Origin: a virus
Reading direction: 5' to 3' (one strand)
Virus genome (UHGV): UHGV-0087644
Length of the DNA stretch: 13,730 bases
Shown piece after piece: positions 264 to 13,130 of the stretch. Under the pieces are notes generated by a model that was not told the DNA's origin, did no database searches, and worked only from the letters and a program-made list of their open reading frames with translations. The first letter of the stretch is position 1, and the number at the start of each line of letters is the position of its first letter. The translations under genes and the position numbers were made by a program.

Positions 264-632
264 TCACTCCCCTTTGATGCGAATGCCAGCGGCGCGGATT
301 GCATCGATGACTTCAGAAACTTTGTATGCCATTACCGTTTGGTAATCATCGTGAAAATCTGTTCGATGAAGCATGCTGCTACGTTCCGGGAGCAGTATTT
401 CCCGCTCCTCCAGTTCTGCAATGCGTTTGCTTTGAGCTTCCAGTTCACCCAGTAGTGCCAGCACGGTAGCCGGATTAGCCTTGGCAATAAAATCCCGGAC
501 TGGCTTACAATCAATCTCCGCACTACCGTGACGAATAACGAAAAAATCACCGTTTATTTTTTTAGCTTGCCACTTATCTTTACCGGCTTTCACTGCCACA
601 TCACGCAGTGCCTGATAGTCAATCTCGCTCAC
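264..632 (-). CDS. hypothetical phage protein (possibly Ead/Ea22-like, tentative)
   Basis: 122-aa ORF in track; GTG start at 632-630 preceded by strong SD AAGGAGG; overlaps upstream gene by 14 nt. Family label is from memory of an ANPATVLALLxELE-type motif only. Confidence 0.55.
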   Translation of the reverse strand: MSEIDYQALRDVAVKAGKDKWQAKKINGDFFVIRHGSAEIDCKPVRDFIAKANPATVLALLGELEAQSKRIAELEEREILLPERSSMLHRTDFHDDYQTVMAYKVSEVIDAIRAAGIRIKGE

Positions 633-1113
633 TGGTTACCTCCTTCATAAAAATAATCCAGTGGGTCTTGTCACCCTTTCCTGTTCGTTGACCGATAACA
701 GGCTTTCTGTCGGTCAGTGCCAATATCTGGCGAACAGGTATTTGCGTTTCATTCCATTTAAAAATCAGAACGCCGTATGGCCACAACACACGAAAGGCTT
801 CTTTGAATCCCTGCCGTAAATCATCACGCCAGGTATCTTTATTCAGCCGTCCATATTTCTTTCCCATCCAGGCGTTATCACCAACACGCTCAAGATGCGG
901 AGGGTCGAATACAACCATCGAAAAGGATGCGTCTGCAAATGGTAGTGCACGAAAATCAGCCATCAGGTCAGGACTGATAATCAGGCGTCGTCCATCACAC
1001 AATGTGTGCTCTTCCTTTCTGATATCGCTAAATATCGCCCGGTCGTCATTCTTATCGAACCAGAACATGCGACTACCACAGCACATGTCGAGGATTGCTG
1101 CATGTCCAGTCAC
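619..1113 (-). CDS. small SAM-dependent methyltransferase, probably DNA N6-adenine/N4-cytosine type
   Basis: 164-aa ORF; motif-I-like ILDMCCGS near N-terminus and motif-IV-like VVFDPPH about 60 aa later; GTG start at 1113 with strong SD AAGGAGG, overlapping upstream stop (GTGA). Target and base specificity not determinable by eye. Confidence 0.55.
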   Translation of the reverse strand: MTGHAAILDMCCGSRMFWFDKNDDRAIFSDIRKEEHTLCDGRRLIISPDLMADFRALPFADASFSMVVFDPPHLERVGDNAWMGKKYGRLNKDTWRDDLRQGFKEAFRVLWPYGVLIFKWNETQIPVRQILALTDRKPVIGQRTGKGDKTHWIIFMKEVTSERD

Positions 1114-1802
1114 TGGTTGCCTCCTTTGCGAAGCTGGGCATCGGTATTGATGCGACTAAAATAGAATCCGAATACTTTCTTCCATGGCTTAACAACAGCG
1201 TCCCTGATTGAGTTTGGGTTAAATCCAGCCTCGATGGCCTGTTTGCTGTCAAAGAACACATACCCAAAACCTTCCTCGTTCTCAGCGCAGACTGGACCTT
1301 TATACGAACCGTGTTTTCTTCCCCCGGCCAGACCTGTTCTATATGCGTGCTGAGTGTTGCCCGCTACCGTCGTCCACTCCAGGTTTGAAACATCATTGTT
1401 TTGTTTATTCCCGTCTATATGGTTAATTACGTGCTCATCAGAAGGCTTAGGGCCGAGAAAGTTTTCAGCAACTAATCGGTGGATGTTCACGCCTTTTAGT
1501 TTTCCTTCAAGCTCCAGCCTAACGAATAAATACTGATTTCTGTTCTTGCCGCGCATGGTTGGGTTTAATTGCTTTAGTTCGCCAGAGGCCAATGAGAAAA
1601 TGAGTCCCTTTGAGGTGATGAAATAGCGATACTTAAAACCAAAAATCTCTTTCACATCGCCAAATAAGTCAGCCAGCGCCGCGCACTTGGCCTCCGCTTC
1701 AGCAAATTTACGCACCAGATATTCAGCGTTTGTTTCGTTAACCTTTAAATCACTTGGGATGCATTTACCTTTCAGAAATCCATCCATCTCAATTAGTGTC
1801 AT
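1110..1802 (-). CDS. HNH homing-endonuclease-like protein (NUMOD4 + HNH_3 type)
   Basis: Track ORF 1110-1829; contains [17 protein letters not shown] (NUMOD4-like) then [20 protein letters not shown] (HNH_3 signature). Start chosen at ATG 1802, which overlaps the upstream stop (ATGA); 1811 or GTG 1829 are alternatives. Confidence 0.7.
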
Positions 1803-1972
1803 TTGTTCCATTTCTTCCCACTCCGCCACATTGCATTCAGATATTTGTTGTCATTAACAGAACCGAAACTATTTCTCTTAAGCAATTCCTCTCTCGATGG
1901 CATTGGCTTTACGCGTTGGCGAATAATCATTTCTGCCGGAAGAATGCCGGGATTGTATGCAAGTCCTCTCAT
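1799..1972 (-). CDS. hypothetical small protein (57 aa)
   Basis: Sub-ORF of track ORF 1799-2122; ATG at 1972 preceded by GAGGA; stop overlaps HNH start. The longer track version would overlap the upstream gene extensively. Confidence 0.3.
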
Positions 1973-4846: not shown

Positions 4847-4937
4847 AGAAGATTTCCAATAATCAGAACAAGTCGGCTCCTGTTTAGTTACGAGCGACAT
4901 TGCCCACATAGCAGACTCGCAAATCTGCTATATGTGC

Positions 4938-5099
4938 TTATTCGCATCGCATGACAACATCAAATTTTTCGAGATTACTTTGTCGCAACAATCCCTCTTC
5001 TACGCGGTCAGCTTTTCTATAATTATCAAATTCGAAATGTTTAATTACTTCTTTCGTTTCTCGCTCTATAACTTCAACGATGTATTTCTTATTCATCAT
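4938..5099 (-). CDS. hypothetical small protein (53 aa)
   Basis: ORF MMNKKYIVEVIERETKEVIKHFEFDNYRKADRVEEGLLRQSNLEKFDVVMRCE, not in track; ATG overlaps upstream stop (ATGA). Confidence 0.3.
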   Translation of the reverse strand: MMNKKYIVEVIERETKEVIKHFEFDNYRKADRVEEGLLRQSNLEKFDVVMRCE

Positions 5100-5395
5100 T
5101 CTTCCCCAAGAGCTTTGCTGATTGCTGACTGTGCTTTCGATACTTCATCAGGATAATGGTCATTCCAGTTTTGCTTGTATGCCTTGTTTAGCATCGCTTG
5201 CAGGGCATTTAAAAGGTCTGGTGCTGCCGCTATCAGATTCATATCTTCTTTGCTAACGATTAGTGATGAGTGACCATCCTTCATGACATAAGAGTCGATG
5301 ACACCACCATCTTTACCTGTTGCTTGACTGCTTAATCGCAGAAAGCTGTTACTTGTCCACCATTTCCATGGGCCGGGTGTATAATTCATATTCAC
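5096..5395 (-). CDS. hypothetical phage protein (possibly Ead/Ea22-like C-terminal region, tentative)
   Basis: 99-aa track ORF; SD GAGGTG before tandem ATGs at 5395/5389; LIAAAPDLLNALQAM motif recalled from Ea22-like prophage proteins. Confidence 0.5.
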   Translation of the reverse strand: MNMNYTPGPWKWWTSNSFLRLSSQATGKDGGVIDSYVMKDGHSSLIVSKEDMNLIAAAPDLLNALQAMLNKAYKQNWNDHYPDEVSKAQSAISKALGEE

Positions 5396-6897: not shown

Positions 6898-7242
6898 CTA
6901 TGACCATTTTTTATTTGGATTTCGTTGGTGAGCGTGATTAACAACTCTGTGCATTACATCCTCATATTTTTCATCTTCAATTTTTTCGACATCGCGAGGA
7001 AATGGTGTTGCTAATGCTTTGTCAACTTTGTCCATTGGTTCTTCATTAATCTTATATTCAGGACCGTCATCTATAGCATTAAATCCAGGTGTTACACCGT
7101 TTTTTAATGCATATGCTATCCTTTTTTCCCATCTCGCTATTCTCCTCCTGTCTCGAGATGTAAGACCTCTATCAGATACTTTTCTGTTTTGTCCGCGGTC
7201 AGGATTAACATAAATAGTCTTTTTCACCATAAGCATACTCAA
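6898..7242 (-). CDS. hypothetical protein with arginine-rich N-terminal region (114 aa)
   Basis: Track ORF; start overlaps N stop (ATGA); SRDRRRIARWEKRIAYALKNG is basic; followed directly by a terminator. Confidence 0.5.
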   Translation of the reverse strand: MSMLMVKKTIYVNPDRGQNRKVSDRGLTSRDRRRIARWEKRIAYALKNGVTPGFNAIDDGPEYKINEEPMDKVDKALATPFPRDVEKIEDEKYEDVMHRVVNHAHQRNPNKKWS

Positions 7243-7544
7243 TAAGCACCGTACGGTAGTTTACTGTACAATTTTATTTTTTGGACTGCATGTATTTTGT
7301 TTCCTAACGGGTTTGAATCTTTGTAATAAATACTTCTATTTTTTCGAACGACTTCTTCTTTCTTCTTGCAGCAAAGGCTTCCTAGTGATGCTGCTTTGTC
7401 TGCTCTGACGCAACCAGAGAGCTTTAGCGCAATTTTTCGCGCCAGTGCTTCATTACTGCGTCGCTCGGCAATAAGTTCTGCTCTGCGAGCTTTGTAGCGG
7501 CTTTTTGCCGTACCTTTGGATTCTTTCCAGACAATGGTTACCAT
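7239..7544 (-). CDS. N: N-like transcription antitermination protein (phi21-type arginine-rich motif)
   Basis: Track ORF 7239-7574 trimmed to ATG 7544 (SD AGGAG); N-terminus MVTIVWKESKGTAKSRYKARRAELIAERR matches the phi21 N arginine-rich RNA-binding peptide as I recall it; nutL lies upstream. Confidence 0.75.
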   Translation of the reverse strand: MVTIVWKESKGTAKSRYKARRAELIAERRSNEALARKIALKLSGCVRADKAASLGSLCCKKKEEVVRKNRSIYYKDSNPLGNKIHAVQKIKLYSKLPYGAY

Positions 7545-7654
7545 AATGGTCTCCTTTAAGTGGCTTTGGCGCATGACGCGTCGAGGTGCTTATCTTCTCG
7601 ATCGCTGTCTTGCAGCTGCAATTCGCGCCATCCCCAAAACCACTCAAGTTCTGG

Positions 7655-7834: not shown

Positions 7835-7860
7835 AAATAAAAAAGGGGCGAAAGCCCCTT
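7835..7860 (-). terminator. rho-independent terminator for the cI transcript
   Basis: Stem AAGGGGC/GCCCCTT (7843-7849 / 7854-7860) with GAAA loop, followed on the minus strand by UUUUAUUU; overlaps the cI stop codon. Confidence 0.55.
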
Positions 7861-8509
7861 AAGGAAGGTTTGCTAGCTTGGCATCAACGACAACGCCAAT
7901 GATTTTACAGTTCCCATTGATTTCAATCATTGGGTATTGTGGATTGAGTGGTTTCAGGAATTTTCTACCGGCATCAATAACTAACTTTTTGAATGTCGCC
8001 TCGTTTTCCCCTTCAAGTTTGGCGACTACCAGCTTTCCATTACGTGGTTCGACTTCTGGGTCGACGAGAATAATCATCCCCTCAGGAATACTCAGTCCTG
8101 CCGGGGCAGTCATTGAATCGCCTTTAACGTCGAGCCAAAAAGAGTCTTCAGAACAATCTACCGTTGTGTCGTACCAGTTATCTATTGCACGCCTATGATA
8201 TGGCTCTACAGCTTCCATCCAACATCCTGCGCTTACCCAACTAATTAGAGGATACGAACCTCTTGGATCATGCCTGCTGTGATAGGCAATGTTTGAAAGA
8301 CTATCCTCTCCTTTCAACAGGTAATCAGGGGAGCACTGCAAAGCCTTGGCTAAGGCCAATAGGTTTTCGCCATTGGGCTCAGTTTCAGATCGCTCCCATT
8401 GGGAAATAGCAACATTAGACACGCCAACCATCTTGCCAAGGGCAGCCTGCCTAATCTTGAGTTCTTTTCTGCGAGCGCGAATACGCTCACCCATCAGTTG
8501 TGTATTCAT
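7859..8509 (-). CDS. cI: CI-type prophage repressor (HTH + S24 LexA-like peptidase domain)
   Basis: 216-aa track ORF; N-terminal HTH (QAALGKMVGVSNVAISQWER); C-terminal FWLDVKGDSMTAPAGLSIPEGMIILVDP...ATFKKL...FLKPLNPQYPMIE closely parallels the lambda CI C-terminal domain. Confidence 0.9.
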   Translation of the reverse strand: MNTQLMGERIRARRKELKIRQAALGKMVGVSNVAISQWERSETEPNGENLLALAKALQCSPDYLLKGEDSLSNIAYHSRHDPRGSYPLISWVSAGCWMEAVEPYHRRAIDNWYDTTVDCSEDSFWLDVKGDSMTAPAGLSIPEGMIILVDPEVEPRNGKLVVAKLEGENEATFKKLVIDAGRKFLKPLNPQYPMIEINGNCKIIGVVVDAKLANLP

Positions 8510-8589
8510 AGTTAAGACATCTTAAATAAACTTGACTTAAGATTCCTTTGGTGGATAATTTAAGTGTTCTTTAACTTCGGAGCGAGTCT
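8510..8589. promoter_or_regulatory. oR operator region with divergent pR / pRM promoters
   Basis: Palindrome TTAAGACATCTTAA (8512-8525); pR -35 TTGACT (8532-8537) and -10 GATAAT (8554-8559); degenerate operator-like TTAAGTGTTCTTTAA (about 8559-8574); SD GGAG before cro ATG 8590. Confidence 0.65.
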
Positions 8590-8775
8590 ATGTACAAAAA
8601 AGATGTTATTGACCACTTCGGAACCCAGCGTGCTGTTGCTAAAGCACTAGGCATTAGCGATGCAGCAGTCTCTCAGTGGAAAGAAGTTATCCCAGAGAAA
8701 GACGCCTATCGATTGGAAATCGTTACAGCTGGCGCCCTGAAGTATCAAGAAAGTGCTTACCGCCAAGCGGCATAA
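8590..8775 (+). CDS. cro: Cro-like repressor (YdaS/Cro HTH family)
   Basis: 61-aa track ORF immediately downstream of pR, divergent from cI; HTH region GTQRAVAKALGISDAAVSQW. Confidence 0.75.
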   Translation: MYKKDVIDHFGTQRAVAKALGISDAAVSQWKEVIPEKDAYRLEIVTAGALKYQESAYRQAA

Positions 8776-8890: not shown

Positions 8891-9187
8891 ATGGCACAAG
8901 CAAGCTACAGCAAGCCAACACAGCGAGAAATTGATCGCGCTGAAACTGATTTACTCATCAACCTGTCAACGCTTACCCAGCGCGGTCTGGCAAAGATGAT
9001 TGGCTGTCATGAATCGAAGATAAGCAGAACGGACTGGCGGTTTATTGCTTCGGTCCTGTGTGCTTTCGGAATGGCATCAGACATCAGTCCGATTAGCAGG
9101 GCTTTTAAGTATGCGCTTGATGAAATCACAAAGAAAAAATCCCCGGCCGCCACCGAGGATTTTAAGCAAATTGATATGCAATTCTGA
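8891..9187 (+). CDS. cII: CII transcriptional activator
   Basis: 98-aa track ORF; ...LAKMIGCHESKISRTDWRFI... and C-terminal KKKSPAATEDFKQIDMQF parallel lambda CII (HTH and C-terminal tail). Confidence 0.85.
   Translation: MAQASYSKPTQREIDRAETDLLINLSTLTQRGLAKMIGCHESKISRTDWRFIASVLCAFGMASDISPISRAFKYALDEITKKKSPAATEDFKQIDMQF
8900..8913 (-). promoter_or_regulatory. candidate CII-binding site (TTGC-N6-TTGC) of a pRE-like leftward promoter
   Basis: Plus strand GCAAGCTACAGCAA, i.e. TTGC-N6-TTGC on the minus strand, inside the first codons of cII, where lambda pRE lies. Confidence 0.4.
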
Positions 9188-9219: not shown

Positions 9220-9381
9220 ATGACAAAACGTCGTAAGAAATACCAGGAAAAAGAAGAGATTCGACACCCTGATTCACCTGAGGGATTAGTGGTAGCCGCA
9301 GCAAATAACAGGGCGTTCGCAGAGCGCCTTGTTGGTGTTTACAGACTAGCCAAAGCAGGAGTGAAACATGGGCGTCGTTAA
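9220..9381 (+). CDS. possible small basic protein (53 aa) between cII and O
   Basis: Not in track; ATG 9220 preceded by AGGAG; [53 protein letters not shown]; 3' end overlaps the O start by 14 nt. Confidence 0.3.
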   Translation: MTKRRKKYQEKEEIRHPDSPEGLVVAAANNRAFAERLVGVYRLAKAGVKHGRR

Positions 9382-10198
9382 GTTAGCTGATTACAGGCCT
9401 CAACTGGAGGTCGTGGAGCATCGCGTGGCAGAACTCGAAGATGGCTACACTCGGACTGCAAACACACTGTTAGAAGCCGCCATGCTTTCTGGACTTACTC
9501 TACATCAGTTACTGATTGTTATGGCTGTGTGGCGCAAGACATACGGTTACAACAAAAAAATAGATTGGATCGGAAACGAACAGTTCGCTGAACTCACTGG
9601 CATGGCACCAACCAAATGCTCTACCGCCAAAAACGAGCTTATCAGAATGGGAGTTCTCATTCAGGTTGGGCGTCAAGTTGGTATGAATACAAACATTTCC
9701 GAGTGGAAAACGAAAGTTAACGGATTCGGTAAAACATTTACCAATTCGGTAAAACAAACCTTCACCAAATCGGTAAAAAGCAATTTACCGAATCAGTCAA
9801 ACACAAAAGACAATATACAAAAGACAATAAATACAAATACCCCCTTACCCCCTAACGGGGATGGCGATGGGCAGGTTAAACCTGAACGTCGCAAGGCAGA
9901 ACGAATCGACTACGAATCCTTCCTGAACGCCTACAACACCGAAGTCGGTGACAGACTTCCACACGCTGTTGCGGTCAACGAGAAACGAAAACGCCGCCTG
10001 AAGAAAATCATCCCGCAACTGAAAACGCCAAACGTGGACGGTTTCAGGGCGTATGTCAGGGCTTTTGTGCATCAGGCCAAGCCGTTTTACTTCGGAGACA
10101 ACGACACGGGCTGGACGGCTGATTTTGATTACCTGCTTAGGGAAGACTCGTTAACGGGAGTTCGGGAAGGGAAGTTTGCAGACAGGGGGATTGCATGA
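9368..10198 (+). CDS. O: replication initiation protein O homolog
   Basis: 276-aa track ORF after cII; SD AGGAG; iterons and an A/T-rich stretch inside the coding region; stop overlaps helicase start (ATGA). Confidence 0.75.
9724..9840. repeat. origin of replication: iterons plus A/T-rich region inside the O gene
   Basis: Direct repeats ATTCGGTAAAAC (9724-9735, 9744-9755), ATCGGTAAAAAG (9768-9779), inverted copy TTTACCGAAT (9784-9793), then A-rich 9801-9840. Confidence 0.6.
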
Positions 10199-11571
10199 AA
10201 CAGGATATCGAAGCGAGCGTTATCGGTGGCCTGCTGATTGGTGGATTAACACCAACCGCCAGCGACGTTCTGGCAACGCTGGATCCGGAAGCGTTTTCAA
10301 TTCCACTCTACCGGAAAGCCTTCGAGGTTATCCGCAAGCAGGCGAGAAACAGAAACCTAATCGATGCGCTGATGGTTGCCGAGGCGTGCGGAGAGGAGCA
10401 TTTCACGTCAATCCTGATGACCAGCAAAAACTGCCCGAGTGCCGCAAACCTGAAGGGATATGCCGGAATGGTCGCGGATAACTATCACCGCCGTCTGGTT
10501 CTGGAAATCATGGATGAAATGCGTGAACCAATTCAGAGCGGAACCATCGACGCATCGAGTCAGGCGATGGATGAGCTTGTAAAGCGTCTTTCAGCCATCA
10601 GAAAGCCCCGTGACGAGGTTAAACCTGTACGGTTAGGGGAAATCATCACTGACTACACTGACACGCTTGACAGGCGCCTGAGGAACGGAGAAGAGTCAGA
10701 TACCCTGAAGACCGGAATCGAAGAACTTGACGCCATCACCGGAGGGATGAACGCAGAAGACCTGGTGATAATCGCTGCTCGTCCTGGTATGGGGAAAACC
10801 GAGCTGGCGCTGAAGATTGCCGAAGGCGTTGCAAGCCGAGTTATTCCTGGTTCTGACGTCCGGCGCGGAGTGTTGATTTTCTCGATGGAAATGAGCGCAT
10901 TGCAGATTGCAGAGCGAAGCATTGCCAACGCCGGGAGGATGTCGGTTAGCGTGCTGCGAAATCCTGCATCGATGGATGACGAAGGCTGGGCGCGCGTTGC
11001 TAACGGCATGAGTCAGCTTGCAGATTTGGATGTATGGGTAGTCGATGCCTCGCGGTTATCGGTCGAAGAAATACGCTCAATCGCAGAACGGCACAAACAG
11101 GAAAATCCAAACCTGTCACTCATCATGGCGGATTATCTTGGCCTGATTGAGAAGCCGAAAGCAGACCGCAACGACCTCGCAATTGCTCACATCTCCGGAA
11201 GCCTGAAGGCGATGGCGAAAGACCTGAAAACGCCAGTTATCTCCCTGAGTCAGCTTTCGCGCGATGTTGAGAAGCGACCAAACAAACGTCCGACAAACGC
11301 AGATTTGCGTGATTCTGGAAGCATTGAGCAGGACGCAGACTCAATCATCATGCTCTATCGGGAAGCTGTATATGACGAGAACAGTAGCGCCGCGCCATTT
11401 GCTGAAATCATTGTGACGAAAAACCGTTTTGGCTCACTTGGTACGGTTTACCAGCGGTTCTGCAACGGACACTTTGTTGCATGTGACCAGGATGAAGCCA
11501 GACAGATTTGCACAGCATCAAATGCACCTGCTGCGCGTGGCAGACGATATGCACAAGGGGCTGACGTATGA
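10195..11571 (+). CDS. DnaB-family replicative DNA helicase (P22 gene 12-like)
   Basis: 458-aa track ORF; Walker [14 protein letters not shown]; DnaB-like N-terminal region and RecA-like C-terminal domain; coupled to O. Confidence 0.85.
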
Positions 11572-12190: not shown

Positions 12191-12601
12191 ATGAAGCAAA
12201 CAATCTTCCTCCGTGGTAAACAACAACAGCAAGCCGCAATCAACGCCATCCTCGCAACACCACTCGATAAAGACAAGCCAGTTACCATCCGCATTACTGA
12301 CTACAAGCGCAACCTTGACCAGAACGCAAAATTTCACGCGATGCTGGCGGATATCGCACGTCAGGTTCAATGGTGCGGAAAATGGTTAAAACCGGAACAA
12401 TGGAAGGTTTTGTTGATCAGCGGTCATGCAGTGGCAACAAAACAGGAAGCTGATGTTTTGCCCGGGCTTGAAGGCGAATACGTCAACATTCGCGAAAGTA
12501 GCGCGCAGATGAGTGTGAAGCGTATGGCAAGTCTGATTGAGTACACGACAGCATGGGCTATTGGTCAGGGTGTCAGATTTACCGACAGGAGGTACGAATG
12601 A
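12191..12601 (+). CDS. ninB: NinB (Orf-family recombination mediator)
   Basis: Track ORF 12185-12601 trimmed to ATG 12191 (SD AAGGAG); ...[27 protein letters not shown]... parallels lambda NinB (RSLDQNRKLWACLGDVSRQVEWHGRWL). Confidence 0.8.
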
Positions 12602-12774: not shown

Positions 12775-13130
12775 CAATGGATTATTCACAGTTAAGTGAT
12801 TTTGAAATTAACAGAATGGTAGGAGACATAATTTTTAAAGGCCTTTGGGCATGTAAACCGGAAACGTCAGGGAATAACACCAACAAATGGTATTACGGAA
12901 ATGCTGATACAACTTTTGAGCCATTAAACCCTTTACCTGACTACTGCAATGATCCTAGCGCCTCATGGCCGATTATTGAGAAATACAGGATTAGCATTAT
13001 CAATCTCGATGAAGACGAGTGGGGTGCACGTGGTGTGGCCTACTGTAAATCTAAGCGAGCTATACATGAAAATTCCCTCCGCGCCGCCATGATTGTCTTT
13101 CTCATGATGCAGGACGCCAATAATGCTTAG
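12771..13130 (+). CDS. hypothetical protein in the P22 ninX position (NinX-like, tentative)
   Basis: Track ORF 12735-13130 trimmed to ATG 12771, overlapping the NinE stop (ATGA); 119 aa. Confidence 0.45.

What the first reader, a model, noticed from the sequence alone, without database searches (positions are those of the whole stretch)
9724..9840. Iteron array and A/T-rich stretch inside the O gene
Three direct and one inverted copy of a (A)TTCGGTAAAA motif at 20-24-bp spacing, followed by a 40-bp A-rich tract, sit in the middle of the O coding region, the classic lambdoid ori architecture. The iterons are reflected in the protein as a repetitive [18 protein letters not shown] segment.
Basis: partly seen in the sequence, partly recalled or inferred. 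Interest (0 to 1): 0.35.

Follow-up and report, generated by a model that had tools for sequence, protein, structure and literature searches.

The report
P22-type replication origin inside O gene
The repeats are the well-known replication origin that lambda-like phages carry inside their own initiator gene, here the phage P22 version, so the finding is real and correctly read but ordinary.

Summary
Window 9717-9800 holds four direct 17-nt iterons at 9717, 9737, 9761 and 9784. Each is an imperfect palindrome, TTTACC-N5-GGTAAA. A 40-nt A-rich tract follows at 9801-9840. All of this lies in the middle of an O-like initiator gene (9368-10198), and a DnaB-like helicase gene follows (10195-11571).

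The start-to-start spacing (20/24/23) is identical to the annotated lambda iterons. The segment is about 96% identical to the rep_origin annotated in P22 GenBank records, which maps to window 9717-9861.

All 84 O-gene sequences I scored (window, P22, HK97, lambda and 80 IMG/VR loci) carry a four-copy array at the same place, in at least six sequence classes. Iteron class follows the N-terminal DNA-binding domain. Third codon positions are nearly frozen in the iteron arms (3/16 variable) but free in the N-domain (86/100), so selection acts on the DNA.

The only mild twist is that this O gene is a natural hybrid. It has P22-type N-domain and iterons, with an HK97-type C-domain and helicase. Origin activity itself was not tested. 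Novelty: already known.

The parts
9368..10198 (+). O-like replication initiator gene (276 aa). It is a natural hybrid: the first ~60 nt are HK97-like, the N-domain and iterons are P22 gene 18-like, and the C-domain is HK97 gp54-like.
   Evidence: ORF list and translation. Pfam Phage_rep_O aa 19-113, E=4e-36. PHROG 345 'replication initiation O-like', E=2e-106. Three-way DNA alignment. Domain identities: N-domain 93.5% to P22 and 49.6% to HK97; C-domain 59.6% to P22 and 99.1% to HK97.
9717..9733 (.). Iteron 1, TTAACGGATTCGGTAAA. The left half-site is degenerate. It is close to the reverse complement of iteron 4.
   Evidence: Its start coincides with the first base of the P22 rep_origin feature (record 32840).
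9737..9753 (.). Iteron 2, TTTACCAATTCGGTAAA. It is a perfect 6+6 dyad with a 5-nt spacer.
9761..9777 (.). Iteron 3, TTCACCAAATCGGTAAA.
9784..9800 (.). Iteron 4, TTTACCGAATCAGTCAA. The right half-site is degenerate.
9801..9840 (+). A-rich, low-stability tract, the presumed DNA-unwinding element. It contains a 14-nt tandem, ACAAAAGACAATAT / ACAAAAGACAATAA, at 9803-9830.
   Evidence: 26 A of 40 nt and rank 23/13,691 for low duplex stability. GC 0.28-0.30 and AT skew +0.6. Tandem repeat D4. 100% identical in P22 and HK97. It starts ACACAAAAGACA, as the lambda tract does.
9841..9861 (.). C-run/G-run segment CCCCTTACCCCCTAACGGGGA. This is the right end of the stretch equivalent to the P22-annotated rep_origin, and it encodes the proline-rich hinge (PLPPNG).
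   Evidence: Coordinate mapping from the alignment with P22. Nearly invariant in window, P22 and HK97.
10195..11571 (+). DnaB-like replicative helicase gene. Its start overlaps the O stop codon.
   Evidence: Pfam DnaB_C E=1e-77 and DnaB N-domain E=5e-13. 99% identical to HK97 gp55. 89% identical to P22 gp12 over the 403 aa available.
8532..8559 (+). pR-like promoter (TTGACT-16-GATAAT) between the repressor and cro genes. Its transcript would run through the origin.
   Evidence: Consensus scan only. Its position matches the early-right promoter annotated in P22.

Best explanation
This is the replication origin of a lambdoid prophage or phage, of the P22 specificity type, embedded in its own initiator gene.

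Shown here:
- Four dyad-symmetric 17-nt iterons with the lambda spacing (20/24/23) lie just downstream of the sequence encoding the Phage_rep_O DNA-binding domain.
- An A-rich, easily melted tract follows.
- The C-terminal domain coding region and a DnaB-like helicase gene come next.
- The iteron arms are conserved at the DNA level regardless of codon position.
- Iteron sequence class changes together with the initiator's N-domain across homologues.

Inferred by analogy with lambda:
- Dimers of the O-like protein bind each iteron through the N-terminal domain. Together they form a wrapped nucleoprotein complex (the O-some). Iteron centres lie about two helical turns apart, and an A4-5 run ends each iteron.
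- With negative supercoiling and rightward transcription from pR, this complex melts the adjacent A-rich tract.
- The C-terminal domain then brings in the phage's own DnaB-like helicase. Lambda instead uses P to hijack host DnaB.
- Host primase and Pol III then start bidirectional theta replication.

The peptide encoded by the iterons and A-rich tract ([44 protein letters not shown]) is most likely a tolerant linker whose sequence is dictated by the DNA.
For: - Family: Pfam Phage_rep_O in the N-terminal third, and DnaB_C/DnaB in the next gene.
- Homology to an annotated origin: P22 records AF527608 and OQ031658 annotate rep_origin 32840-32984 inside gene 18. Iteron 1 of P22 starts exactly at 32840. 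The window differs from P22 at 2 of 68 iteron positions, both in the spacer of iteron 2.
- Lambda architecture: the annotated lambda iterons at 39034/39054/39078/39101 give spacing 20/24/23, identical to the window, P22 and HK97. The tract after iteron 4 begins ACACAAAAGACA in all of them.
- Universality: all 84 O-gene sequences scored have a four-copy array at nt ~297-354. Scores are 62-88/102 against a background maximum of 38-44. Two loci score 45-47, apparently because the fourth copy is shifted by 1 nt. There are at least 6 iteron classes.
- DNA-level constraint: among 17 P22-type genes, 86/100 third codon positions vary in the N-domain but only 3/16 in iteron arms (Fisher p=1.4e-7). Spacers and inter-iteron gaps vary at all codon positions.
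- Module covariation: iteron identity tracks N-domain identity (Spearman 0.67-0.72) more than C-domain identity (0.39-0.41). Helicase identity tracks the C-domain (0.81) more than the N-domain (0.45).
- Literature: lambda O binds four iterons in the middle of gene O, next to an AT-rich tract (PMC7466680; PMC6022878). [quoted passage not shown] A viable lambda hybrid has O-P, and therefore ori-lambda, replaced by P22 orf48-18-12, so an origin must lie in that segment (PMC3349717). In-frame deletions in the lambda AT-rich tract still give complementing O protein, which fits a tolerant linker.
Against: - Nothing here shows binding, unwinding or initiation for this sequence.
- The P22 origin itself is annotated 'by similarity with lambda'. 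I found no paper in the library reporting gp18 footprinting or physical mapping of the P22 origin.
- The covariation statistics use non-independent pairs. They are also confounded by physical linkage: iterons adjoin the N-domain coding sequence, and the helicase gene adjoins the C-domain.
- The element may sit in a defective prophage.
- The A-rich tract is not the single least stable stretch of the window. 5012-5055 and 8501-8545 are lower.
Confidence: 0.9

Rival explanations
1. The DNA repeats are only a shadow of a repeated peptide (TFT-SVK units) selected at the protein level. On this view they are not protein-binding DNA sites.
For: The translation does contain a repetitive segment, [16 protein letters not shown].
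Against: - Third codon positions in the iteron arms are almost invariant (3/16) while 86/100 vary in the N-domain.
- Each unit is an inverted repeat at the DNA level, which peptide selection would not create.
- Other iteron classes encode unrelated peptides at the same spacing, for example SLTLAKTANKTLAKSAN in HK97 and GKSPKTRDKTSLKLGD in lambda.
- Amino-acid changes are tolerated in spacers and gaps.
Confidence: 0.03
2. The sequence is an origin by descent but is inactive here. It would be a relic in a cryptic prophage, or a hybrid initiator whose P22-type N-domain and HK97-type C-domain no longer work together.
For: The gene is a three-part mosaic. No test of function was possible.
Against: - The O and helicase ORFs are intact with overlapping stop/start.
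- The iterons match their cognate N-domain (97% and 93.5% to P22), and the C-domain matches its cognate helicase (99% and 99% to HK97). The predicted specificity pairs are therefore preserved.
- An O protein 100% identical over all 276 residues recurs on four separate IMG/VR viral contigs (L005-L008). The gene covers at least 80% of the query in 34 complete E. coli genomes, the ten best at 98.6-99.2% identity. That recurrence argues for a transmissible, selected combination.
Confidence: 0.1
3. The array acts mainly as a regulatory or titration site for the initiator (autoregulation, copy-number handcuffing or exclusion of related phages) rather than as the start site of replication.
For: Ectopic copies of ori-lambda iterons inhibit rep-lambda phages (PMC3349717; PMC4488673, listed). 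Iterons can therefore have trans effects.
Against: These effects in lambda are secondary to origin function. The adjacent conserved A-rich unwinding tract and the lambda-identical spacing are origin features, not operator features. The site lies about 350 nt inside the gene, far from the promoter.
Confidence: 0.04

Closest known systems
Phage P22 origin inside gene 18 (the gene 18 / gene 12 replicon, 'repP22')
   Same: - Same iteron sequence class, TTTACC-N5-GGTAAA.
- Same four positions, with 66/68 iteron bases identical.
- Identical A-rich tract and C-rich hinge.
- N-domain 93.5% identical.
- A DnaB-like helicase gene lies immediately downstream.

   Different: - The C-terminal domain is only 59.6% identical to gp18 and is instead 99.1% HK97 gp54.
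- The helicase is 99% HK97 gp55 against 89% P22 gp12.
- The first ~60 nt of the gene, and its start overlap with the upstream small ORF, follow the HK97 arrangement.
- The host context is E. coli rather than Salmonella.
Phage lambda ori (four iterons ITN1-4 plus AT-rich tract inside gene O)
   Same: [quoted passage not shown]
- Four dyad-symmetric iterons at start spacing 20/24/23.
- The A-rich tract begins ACACAAAAGACA immediately after iteron 4.
- Phage_rep_O N-domain.

   Different: - The iteron sequence is different: ATCCCTCAAAACGAGGGA.
- The N-domain is 46% identical.
- The C-domains are unrelated. Lambda's binds P, which recruits host DnaB. Here a phage DnaB-like helicase is encoded instead.

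HK97 / Stx-phage / mEp213-type O gene
   Same: - C-domain, helicase, A-rich tract and gene ends are 97-99% identical.
- Same four-iteron layout.

   Different: - The iterons are TTAGCC-N5-GGCTAA.
- The N-domain is only 49.6% identical, which implies a different origin specificity.

Iteron-type plasmid origins (pSC101, P1, F, R6K, RK2: Rep protein + iterons + AT-rich DUE)
   Same: The working principle is the same. An element-encoded initiator binds directly repeated ~20-bp sites and melts an adjacent AT-rich element. This rests on established knowledge (reviews PMC5043065 and PMC10797057, listed).
   Different: - The initiator family is Phage_rep_O, with no plasmid Rep family hit.
- The origin lies inside the initiator's coding sequence.
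- There is no DnaA box near the array. The only TTATNCACA match in the window is at 12782.

Membership tests
Lambdoid O-type origin (ori-lambda architecture) | The origin lies inside the initiator's own gene, between the N- and C-domain coding parts. | tested here: met
   The array is at nt 350-433 of the 831-nt ORF. The Pfam N-domain ends at aa 113 and iteron 1 starts at codon 117.
Lambdoid O-type origin (ori-lambda architecture) | Four ~18-bp iterons with internal dyad symmetry, spaced about two helical turns apart. | tested here: met
   Starts at 9717/9737/9761/9784 give spacing 20/24/23, identical to the annotated lambda iterons. The half-site arms match 4-6 of 6 positions. 0/1000 simulations gave a cluster of 3 or more.
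Lambdoid O-type origin (ori-lambda architecture) | An A/T-rich, strand-asymmetric tract lies immediately to the right of the last iteron. | tested here: met
   9801-9840 has 31/40 A+T, 26 of them A, and ranks 23/13,691 for low stability. Its first 12 nt are shared with lambda.
Lambdoid O-type origin (ori-lambda architecture) | The initiator carries the Phage_rep_O DNA-binding domain. | tested here: met
   PF04492, 123.8 bits against a cutoff of 28.7.
Lambdoid O-type origin (ori-lambda architecture) | The initiator binds the iterons and replication initiates here. | not testable with these tools
   Indirect support only: DNA-level conservation of the arms and iteron/N-domain covariation.
Lambdoid O-type origin (ori-lambda architecture) | The partner is a lambda P-type loader that recruits host DnaB. 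| tested here: not met
   The downstream gene is a DnaB-like helicase (DnaB_C E=1e-77). This is the P22/HK97 variant of the system, not the lambda variant.
P22 replicon (gene 18 / gene 12, repP22) | P22-class iterons and A-rich tract collinear with the annotated P22 rep_origin. | tested here: met
   About 96% identity over the 145-nt feature, by my count from the alignment. 66/68 iteron bases are identical.
P22 replicon (gene 18 / gene 12, repP22) | gp18-type origin-recognition (N-terminal) domain. | tested here: met
   93.5% identity over 107 aa.
P22 replicon (gene 18 / gene 12, repP22) | gp18-type C-terminal domain. | tested here: not met
   59.6% identity to P22 against 99.1% to HK97 gp54. 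The gene is a hybrid, so it belongs to the P22 origin-specificity class but is not a straightforward P22 replicon.
P22 replicon (gene 18 / gene 12, repP22) | A phage-encoded DnaB-type helicase lies immediately downstream. | tested here: met
   458 aa, 89% identical to gp12 over the 403 aa compared and 99% to HK97 gp55.
Plasmid iteron origins (Rep_3 / RepA type) | Initiator of a plasmid Rep family, with DnaA boxes beside the iterons. | tested here: not met
   Only Phage_rep_O was found. There is no DnaA-box consensus within the O gene.

The most novel reading that the evidence does not exclude
The stretch that is base-for-base identical in the window, P22 and HK97 (A-rich tract plus CCCCCTTACCCCCTAA, 9801-9856) may be more than an unwinding element. 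It may serve as the shared 'linker' at which lambdoid phages recombine. Recombination there would exchange origin-specificity modules (N-domain plus iterons) against helicase-recruitment modules (C-domain plus helicase). The window would be a live product of such an exchange. On this reading, the sequence is frozen jointly by origin function and by its role as a recombination joint.
Probability: 0.3. Interest if true: 0.3.

Novelty: already known. Interest (0 to 1): 0.12.

Why it matters
It matters little as a discovery. The iteron plus A/T-rich origin inside gene O is textbook lambda biology. This particular iteron class is already annotated as rep_origin in P22 GenBank records and described in the literature (PMC8022706).

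Its practical value is for annotation.
- It pins the origin of this prophage to 9717-9861.
- It shows that the O gene is a P22-specificity / HK97-helicase hybrid.
- It gives a simple rule for locating origins and predicting replication specificity or incompatibility classes in lambdoid prophages, including Stx phages: four dyad iterons at 20/24/23 spacing, ending just before ACACAAAAGACA.

Tried and rejected
- Rfam scan at gathering thresholds and a tRNA scan of the whole window found nothing.
- A sequence search of the O protein against PDB chains gave only chance hits at E about 0.3, so no structural inference was drawn.
- My first cluster test, allowing up to 4 mismatches to the dyad pattern, was too lax. 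59 hits were found and 48/300 shuffles gave a cluster of 4. I replaced it with a test at up to 2 mismatches.
- The consensus scan called a 'terminator-like' hairpin at 9777-9737 on the minus strand. This is simply iterons 2 and 3 pairing with each other, and I rejected it as a terminator.
- An isolated fifth match to the dyad pattern lies at 12204, TCTTCCTCCGTGGTAAA. About 0.46 chance hits are expected per window, so I treat it as chance.
- I looked for a DnaA box near the array and found none.
- Literature searches for direct biochemical or physical mapping of the P22 origin found nothing in the held library. The P22 genome paper PMC94795 is not held.
- I did not run structure prediction or the large protein-database searches, because the conclusion does not depend on them.

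Full report
**What is in the sequence**

The window is the early region of a lambdoid phage or prophage.
- A cI/LexA-like repressor lies at 7859-8509 on the minus strand.
- A P22-type cro lies at 8590-8775, and cII at 8891-9187.
- A 53-aa ORF lies at 9220-9381.
- A 276-aa ORF lies at 9368-10198. Its residues 19-113 match Pfam Phage_rep_O (E=4e-36).
- A 458-aa DnaB-like helicase gene lies at 10195-11571.
- To the left are N-like, Nun, Erf, SSB, Abc2, HNH and methyltransferase genes. To the right are nin-region genes.

The finding lies in the middle of the O-like ORF.

**Checking the observation**

The 10-mer TTCGGTAAAA is at 9725 and 9745 exactly, at 9769 with one mismatch, and on the minus strand at 9783-9792 with one mismatch. 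The repeat finder returns a four-copy direct family with start spacing 20/24/23. It also returns inverted repeats that link each of the first three units with the fourth.

Read out in register, the units are:
- TTAACGGATTCGGTAAA (9717)
- TTTACCAATTCGGTAAA (9737)
- TTCACCAAATCGGTAAA (9761)
- TTTACCGAATCAGTCAA (9784)

These are four direct copies of a 17-nt imperfect palindrome, TTTACC-N5-GGTAAA. The 'inverted copy' is the left half-site of unit 4. Units 2 and 3 have left half-sites too. Unit 1 is nearly the reverse complement of unit 4, so the degenerate half-sites face outward (I1).

The statistics are clear.
- With up to 2 mismatches in the 12 arm positions, the window has five hits, four of them these. 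In 1000 first-order Markov simulations, none gave a cluster of 3 or more and one gave a cluster of 2.
- The four-copy register score is 80/102 at 9717 and at most 45 elsewhere in the window.

The following 40 nt (9801-9840) have 26 A and 5 T. They are among the most single-base-rich 40-mers in the window and rank 23rd of 13,691 for low nearest-neighbour stability. GC falls to 0.28-0.30. The tract contains a 14-nt tandem, ACAAAAGACAATAT/ACAAAAGACAATAA.

**What it is**

The N-terminal half of the gene, including the repeats, matches P22 gene 18 at 92.7-93.8%. P22 iteron 1 starts exactly at 32840. By alignment, the feature corresponds to window 9717-9861. Within it the window differs from P22 at about 6 of 145 positions, and at 2 of 68 iteron positions, both in the spacer of iteron 2.

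The RefSeq lambda record annotates ori iterons 1-4 at 39034, 39054, 39078 and 39101. That spacing of 20/24/23 is the same as in the window, P22 and HK97. The lambda sequence after iteron 4 begins ACACAAAAGACA, as here. The layout is therefore homologous to ori-lambda, not merely similar.

**Comparative test**

I fetched 80 IMG/VR loci encoding O homologues at 48-100% identity. For every gene I scored the best four-copy array at the lambda spacing.

All 84 sequences, counting the window, P22, HK97 and lambda, have such an array at nt ~297-354 of the match region. Scores are 62-88/102 against within-gene background maxima of 38-44. Two loci (L069, L071) score 45-47. By eye, their fourth copy is shifted by one base.

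At least six iteron classes occur:
- TTTACC..GGTAAA
- TTAGCC..GGCTAA
- ATCCCTC..GAGGGA
- TCACC..GTGACA
- TACCC..GGTAA
- TTAGC..TGCTAA

The refutation criterion is therefore not met.

**DNA sites or protein repeat?**

I compared 17 collinear P22-type genes.
- 86 of 100 third codon positions vary in the N-domain coding region.
- Only 3 of 16 vary in the iteron arms (Fisher p=1.4e-7).
- The 5-nt spacers and the inter-iteron gaps vary at all three codon positions.

The constraint therefore follows the dyad arms, not the reading frame. The other iteron classes encode unrelated peptides at the same place. In lambda, in-frame deletions in the AT-rich tract still yield O protein that complements (PMC6022878). 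The repeated peptide is a consequence of the DNA repeat and most likely forms a tolerant linker.

**Modules**

The three-way DNA alignment shows a mosaic.
- The first ~60 nt are HK97-like.
- The N-domain and iterons are P22-like.
- The A-rich tract and CCCCCTTACCCCCTAA are identical in all three.
- The C-domain is HK97-like.

The numbers agree. The N-domain is 93.5% identical to P22 and 49.6% to HK97. The iterons are 97% and 34%. The C-domain is 59.6% and 99.1%. The helicase is 99% identical to HK97 gp55 and 89% to P22 gp12.

Across unique homologues, two patterns hold.
- Iteron identity follows N-domain identity (Spearman 0.67-0.72) more than C-domain identity (0.39-0.41).
- Helicase identity follows the C-domain (0.81) more than the N-domain (0.45).

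This fits the classical two-domain model: the N-terminal domain reads the origin, and the C-terminal domain engages the helicase or loader (PMC6022878). There is a caveat. The pairs are not independent, and simple physical linkage in a mosaic genome would give the same trend.

**Mechanism**

The anatomy, homology, DNA-level constraint and covariation are shown here. The following steps are inferred from lambda (PMC7466680; PMC6022878):
1. O dimers bind the four dyad iterons and form an O-some. Iteron centres lie about two helical turns apart, and each iteron ends in an A4-5 run. This phasing favours bending, which I infer from the sequence.
2. Supercoiling and rightward transcription from the pR-like promoter at 8532-8559 open the A-rich tract.
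3. The C-domain delivers the phage DnaB-like helicase.
4. Host primase and polymerase complete initiation.

There is genetic support for an origin in the P22 segment. A viable lambda hybrid has O-P, and hence ori-lambda, replaced by P22 orf48-18-12 (PMC3349717). PMC8022706 states that P22 gene 18 contains four ~20-bp repeats different from lambda's, and treats the corresponding repeat region of phage L as its likely origin.

I found no direct biochemical demonstration for the P22 class in the held library. The P22 annotation itself is by similarity.

**Rivals**

- Protein-level repeat. The codon-position analysis and the dyad symmetry contradict it.
- Inactive relic or incompatible hybrid. This cannot be excluded without experiment. 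It is unlikely because the cognate pairs (iterons with N-domain, C-domain with helicase) are preserved and the ORFs are intact. An identical O protein also recurs on four IMG/VR contigs, and the gene covers at least 80% of the query in 34 complete E. coli genomes, the best ten at 98.6-99.2% identity.
- Mainly regulatory or titration role. The origin-type A-rich tract and the lambda spacing argue against it.

**Comparison and novelty**

The feature is a member of the lambdoid O-type origin architecture and of the P22 origin-specificity class. It is not a plain P22 replicon, because its C-domain and helicase are HK97-type. It is not the lambda variant either, because the partner is a helicase rather than a P loader. 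It works like plasmid iteron origins but has a different initiator family and no DnaA box nearby.

The feature is already known. The hybrid arrangement is a routine example of lambdoid mosaicism.

The most novel reading still open concerns the invariant A-rich/C-rich stretch. It may double as the recombination joint at which specificity and helicase modules are exchanged. I give this about 0.3 probability and modest interest.

Noticed in passing
window 6898-7242 (-) and 7239-7574 (-): A Nun transcription-termination (exclusion) protein, 96.5% identical to HK022 Nun, is encoded directly downstream of an N-like antiterminator gene. Phages mEp235 and mEpX1 have the same arrangement.
   Followed up: partly
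window 9136-9163 (-): A G+C-rich hairpin followed by a T-run lies on the minus strand at the end of cII. It is at the position where P22 records annotate the oop terminator, so it is probably the oop antisense RNA terminator. Rfam gave no hit.
   Followed up: partly
window 9803-9830; locus L078: The A-rich tract contains a 14-nt tandem, ACAAAAGACAATAT/ACAAAAGACAATAA. Lambda has ACAAAAGACACTATT/ACAAAAGAAAA at the same place. IMG/VR locus L078 carries only one copy. A 14-nt loss would shift the O reading frame, and its match length is not a multiple of 3.
   Followed up: partly
window 9368-9430 and 9220-9381: The 5' ~60 nt of the O gene are HK97-like rather than P22-like. The gene start also overlaps the upstream 53-aa ORF (PHROG 1331) as in HK97. 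This implies a second mosaic junction near 9430, in addition to the one at the A-rich tract.
   Followed up: partly
window 9737-9777 (-): The consensus scan calls a terminator-like 18-pair hairpin here. It is iterons 2 and 3 pairing with each other, a side effect of the dyad repeats, not a credible terminator.
   Followed up: yes
window 12204-12220: An isolated fifth match to the iteron dyad pattern (TCTTCCTCCGTGGTAAA, 2 mismatches) lies inside the NinB-like gene. About 0.46 such hits are expected per window by chance.
   Followed up: yes
window 5012-5055 and 8501-8545: These are the two least stable (most A+T-rich) 40-mers of the window. The second is the repressor-cro intergenic operator/promoter region. 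The first lies around the start of the 4932-5156 (+) ORF, which has no PHROG match, and was not examined.
   Followed up: no
window 619-1829 (-): A DNA methyltransferase gene (619-1113) and an HNH endonuclease gene (1110-1829) overlap end to end at the far left of the early-left operon.
   Followed up: no
loci L066, L069-L071, L077: In some divergent O homologues the fourth iteron (or iterons 2-4 in L077) appears shifted by one base relative to the 20/24/23 register. Spacing is therefore conserved but not absolutely fixed.
   Followed up: no
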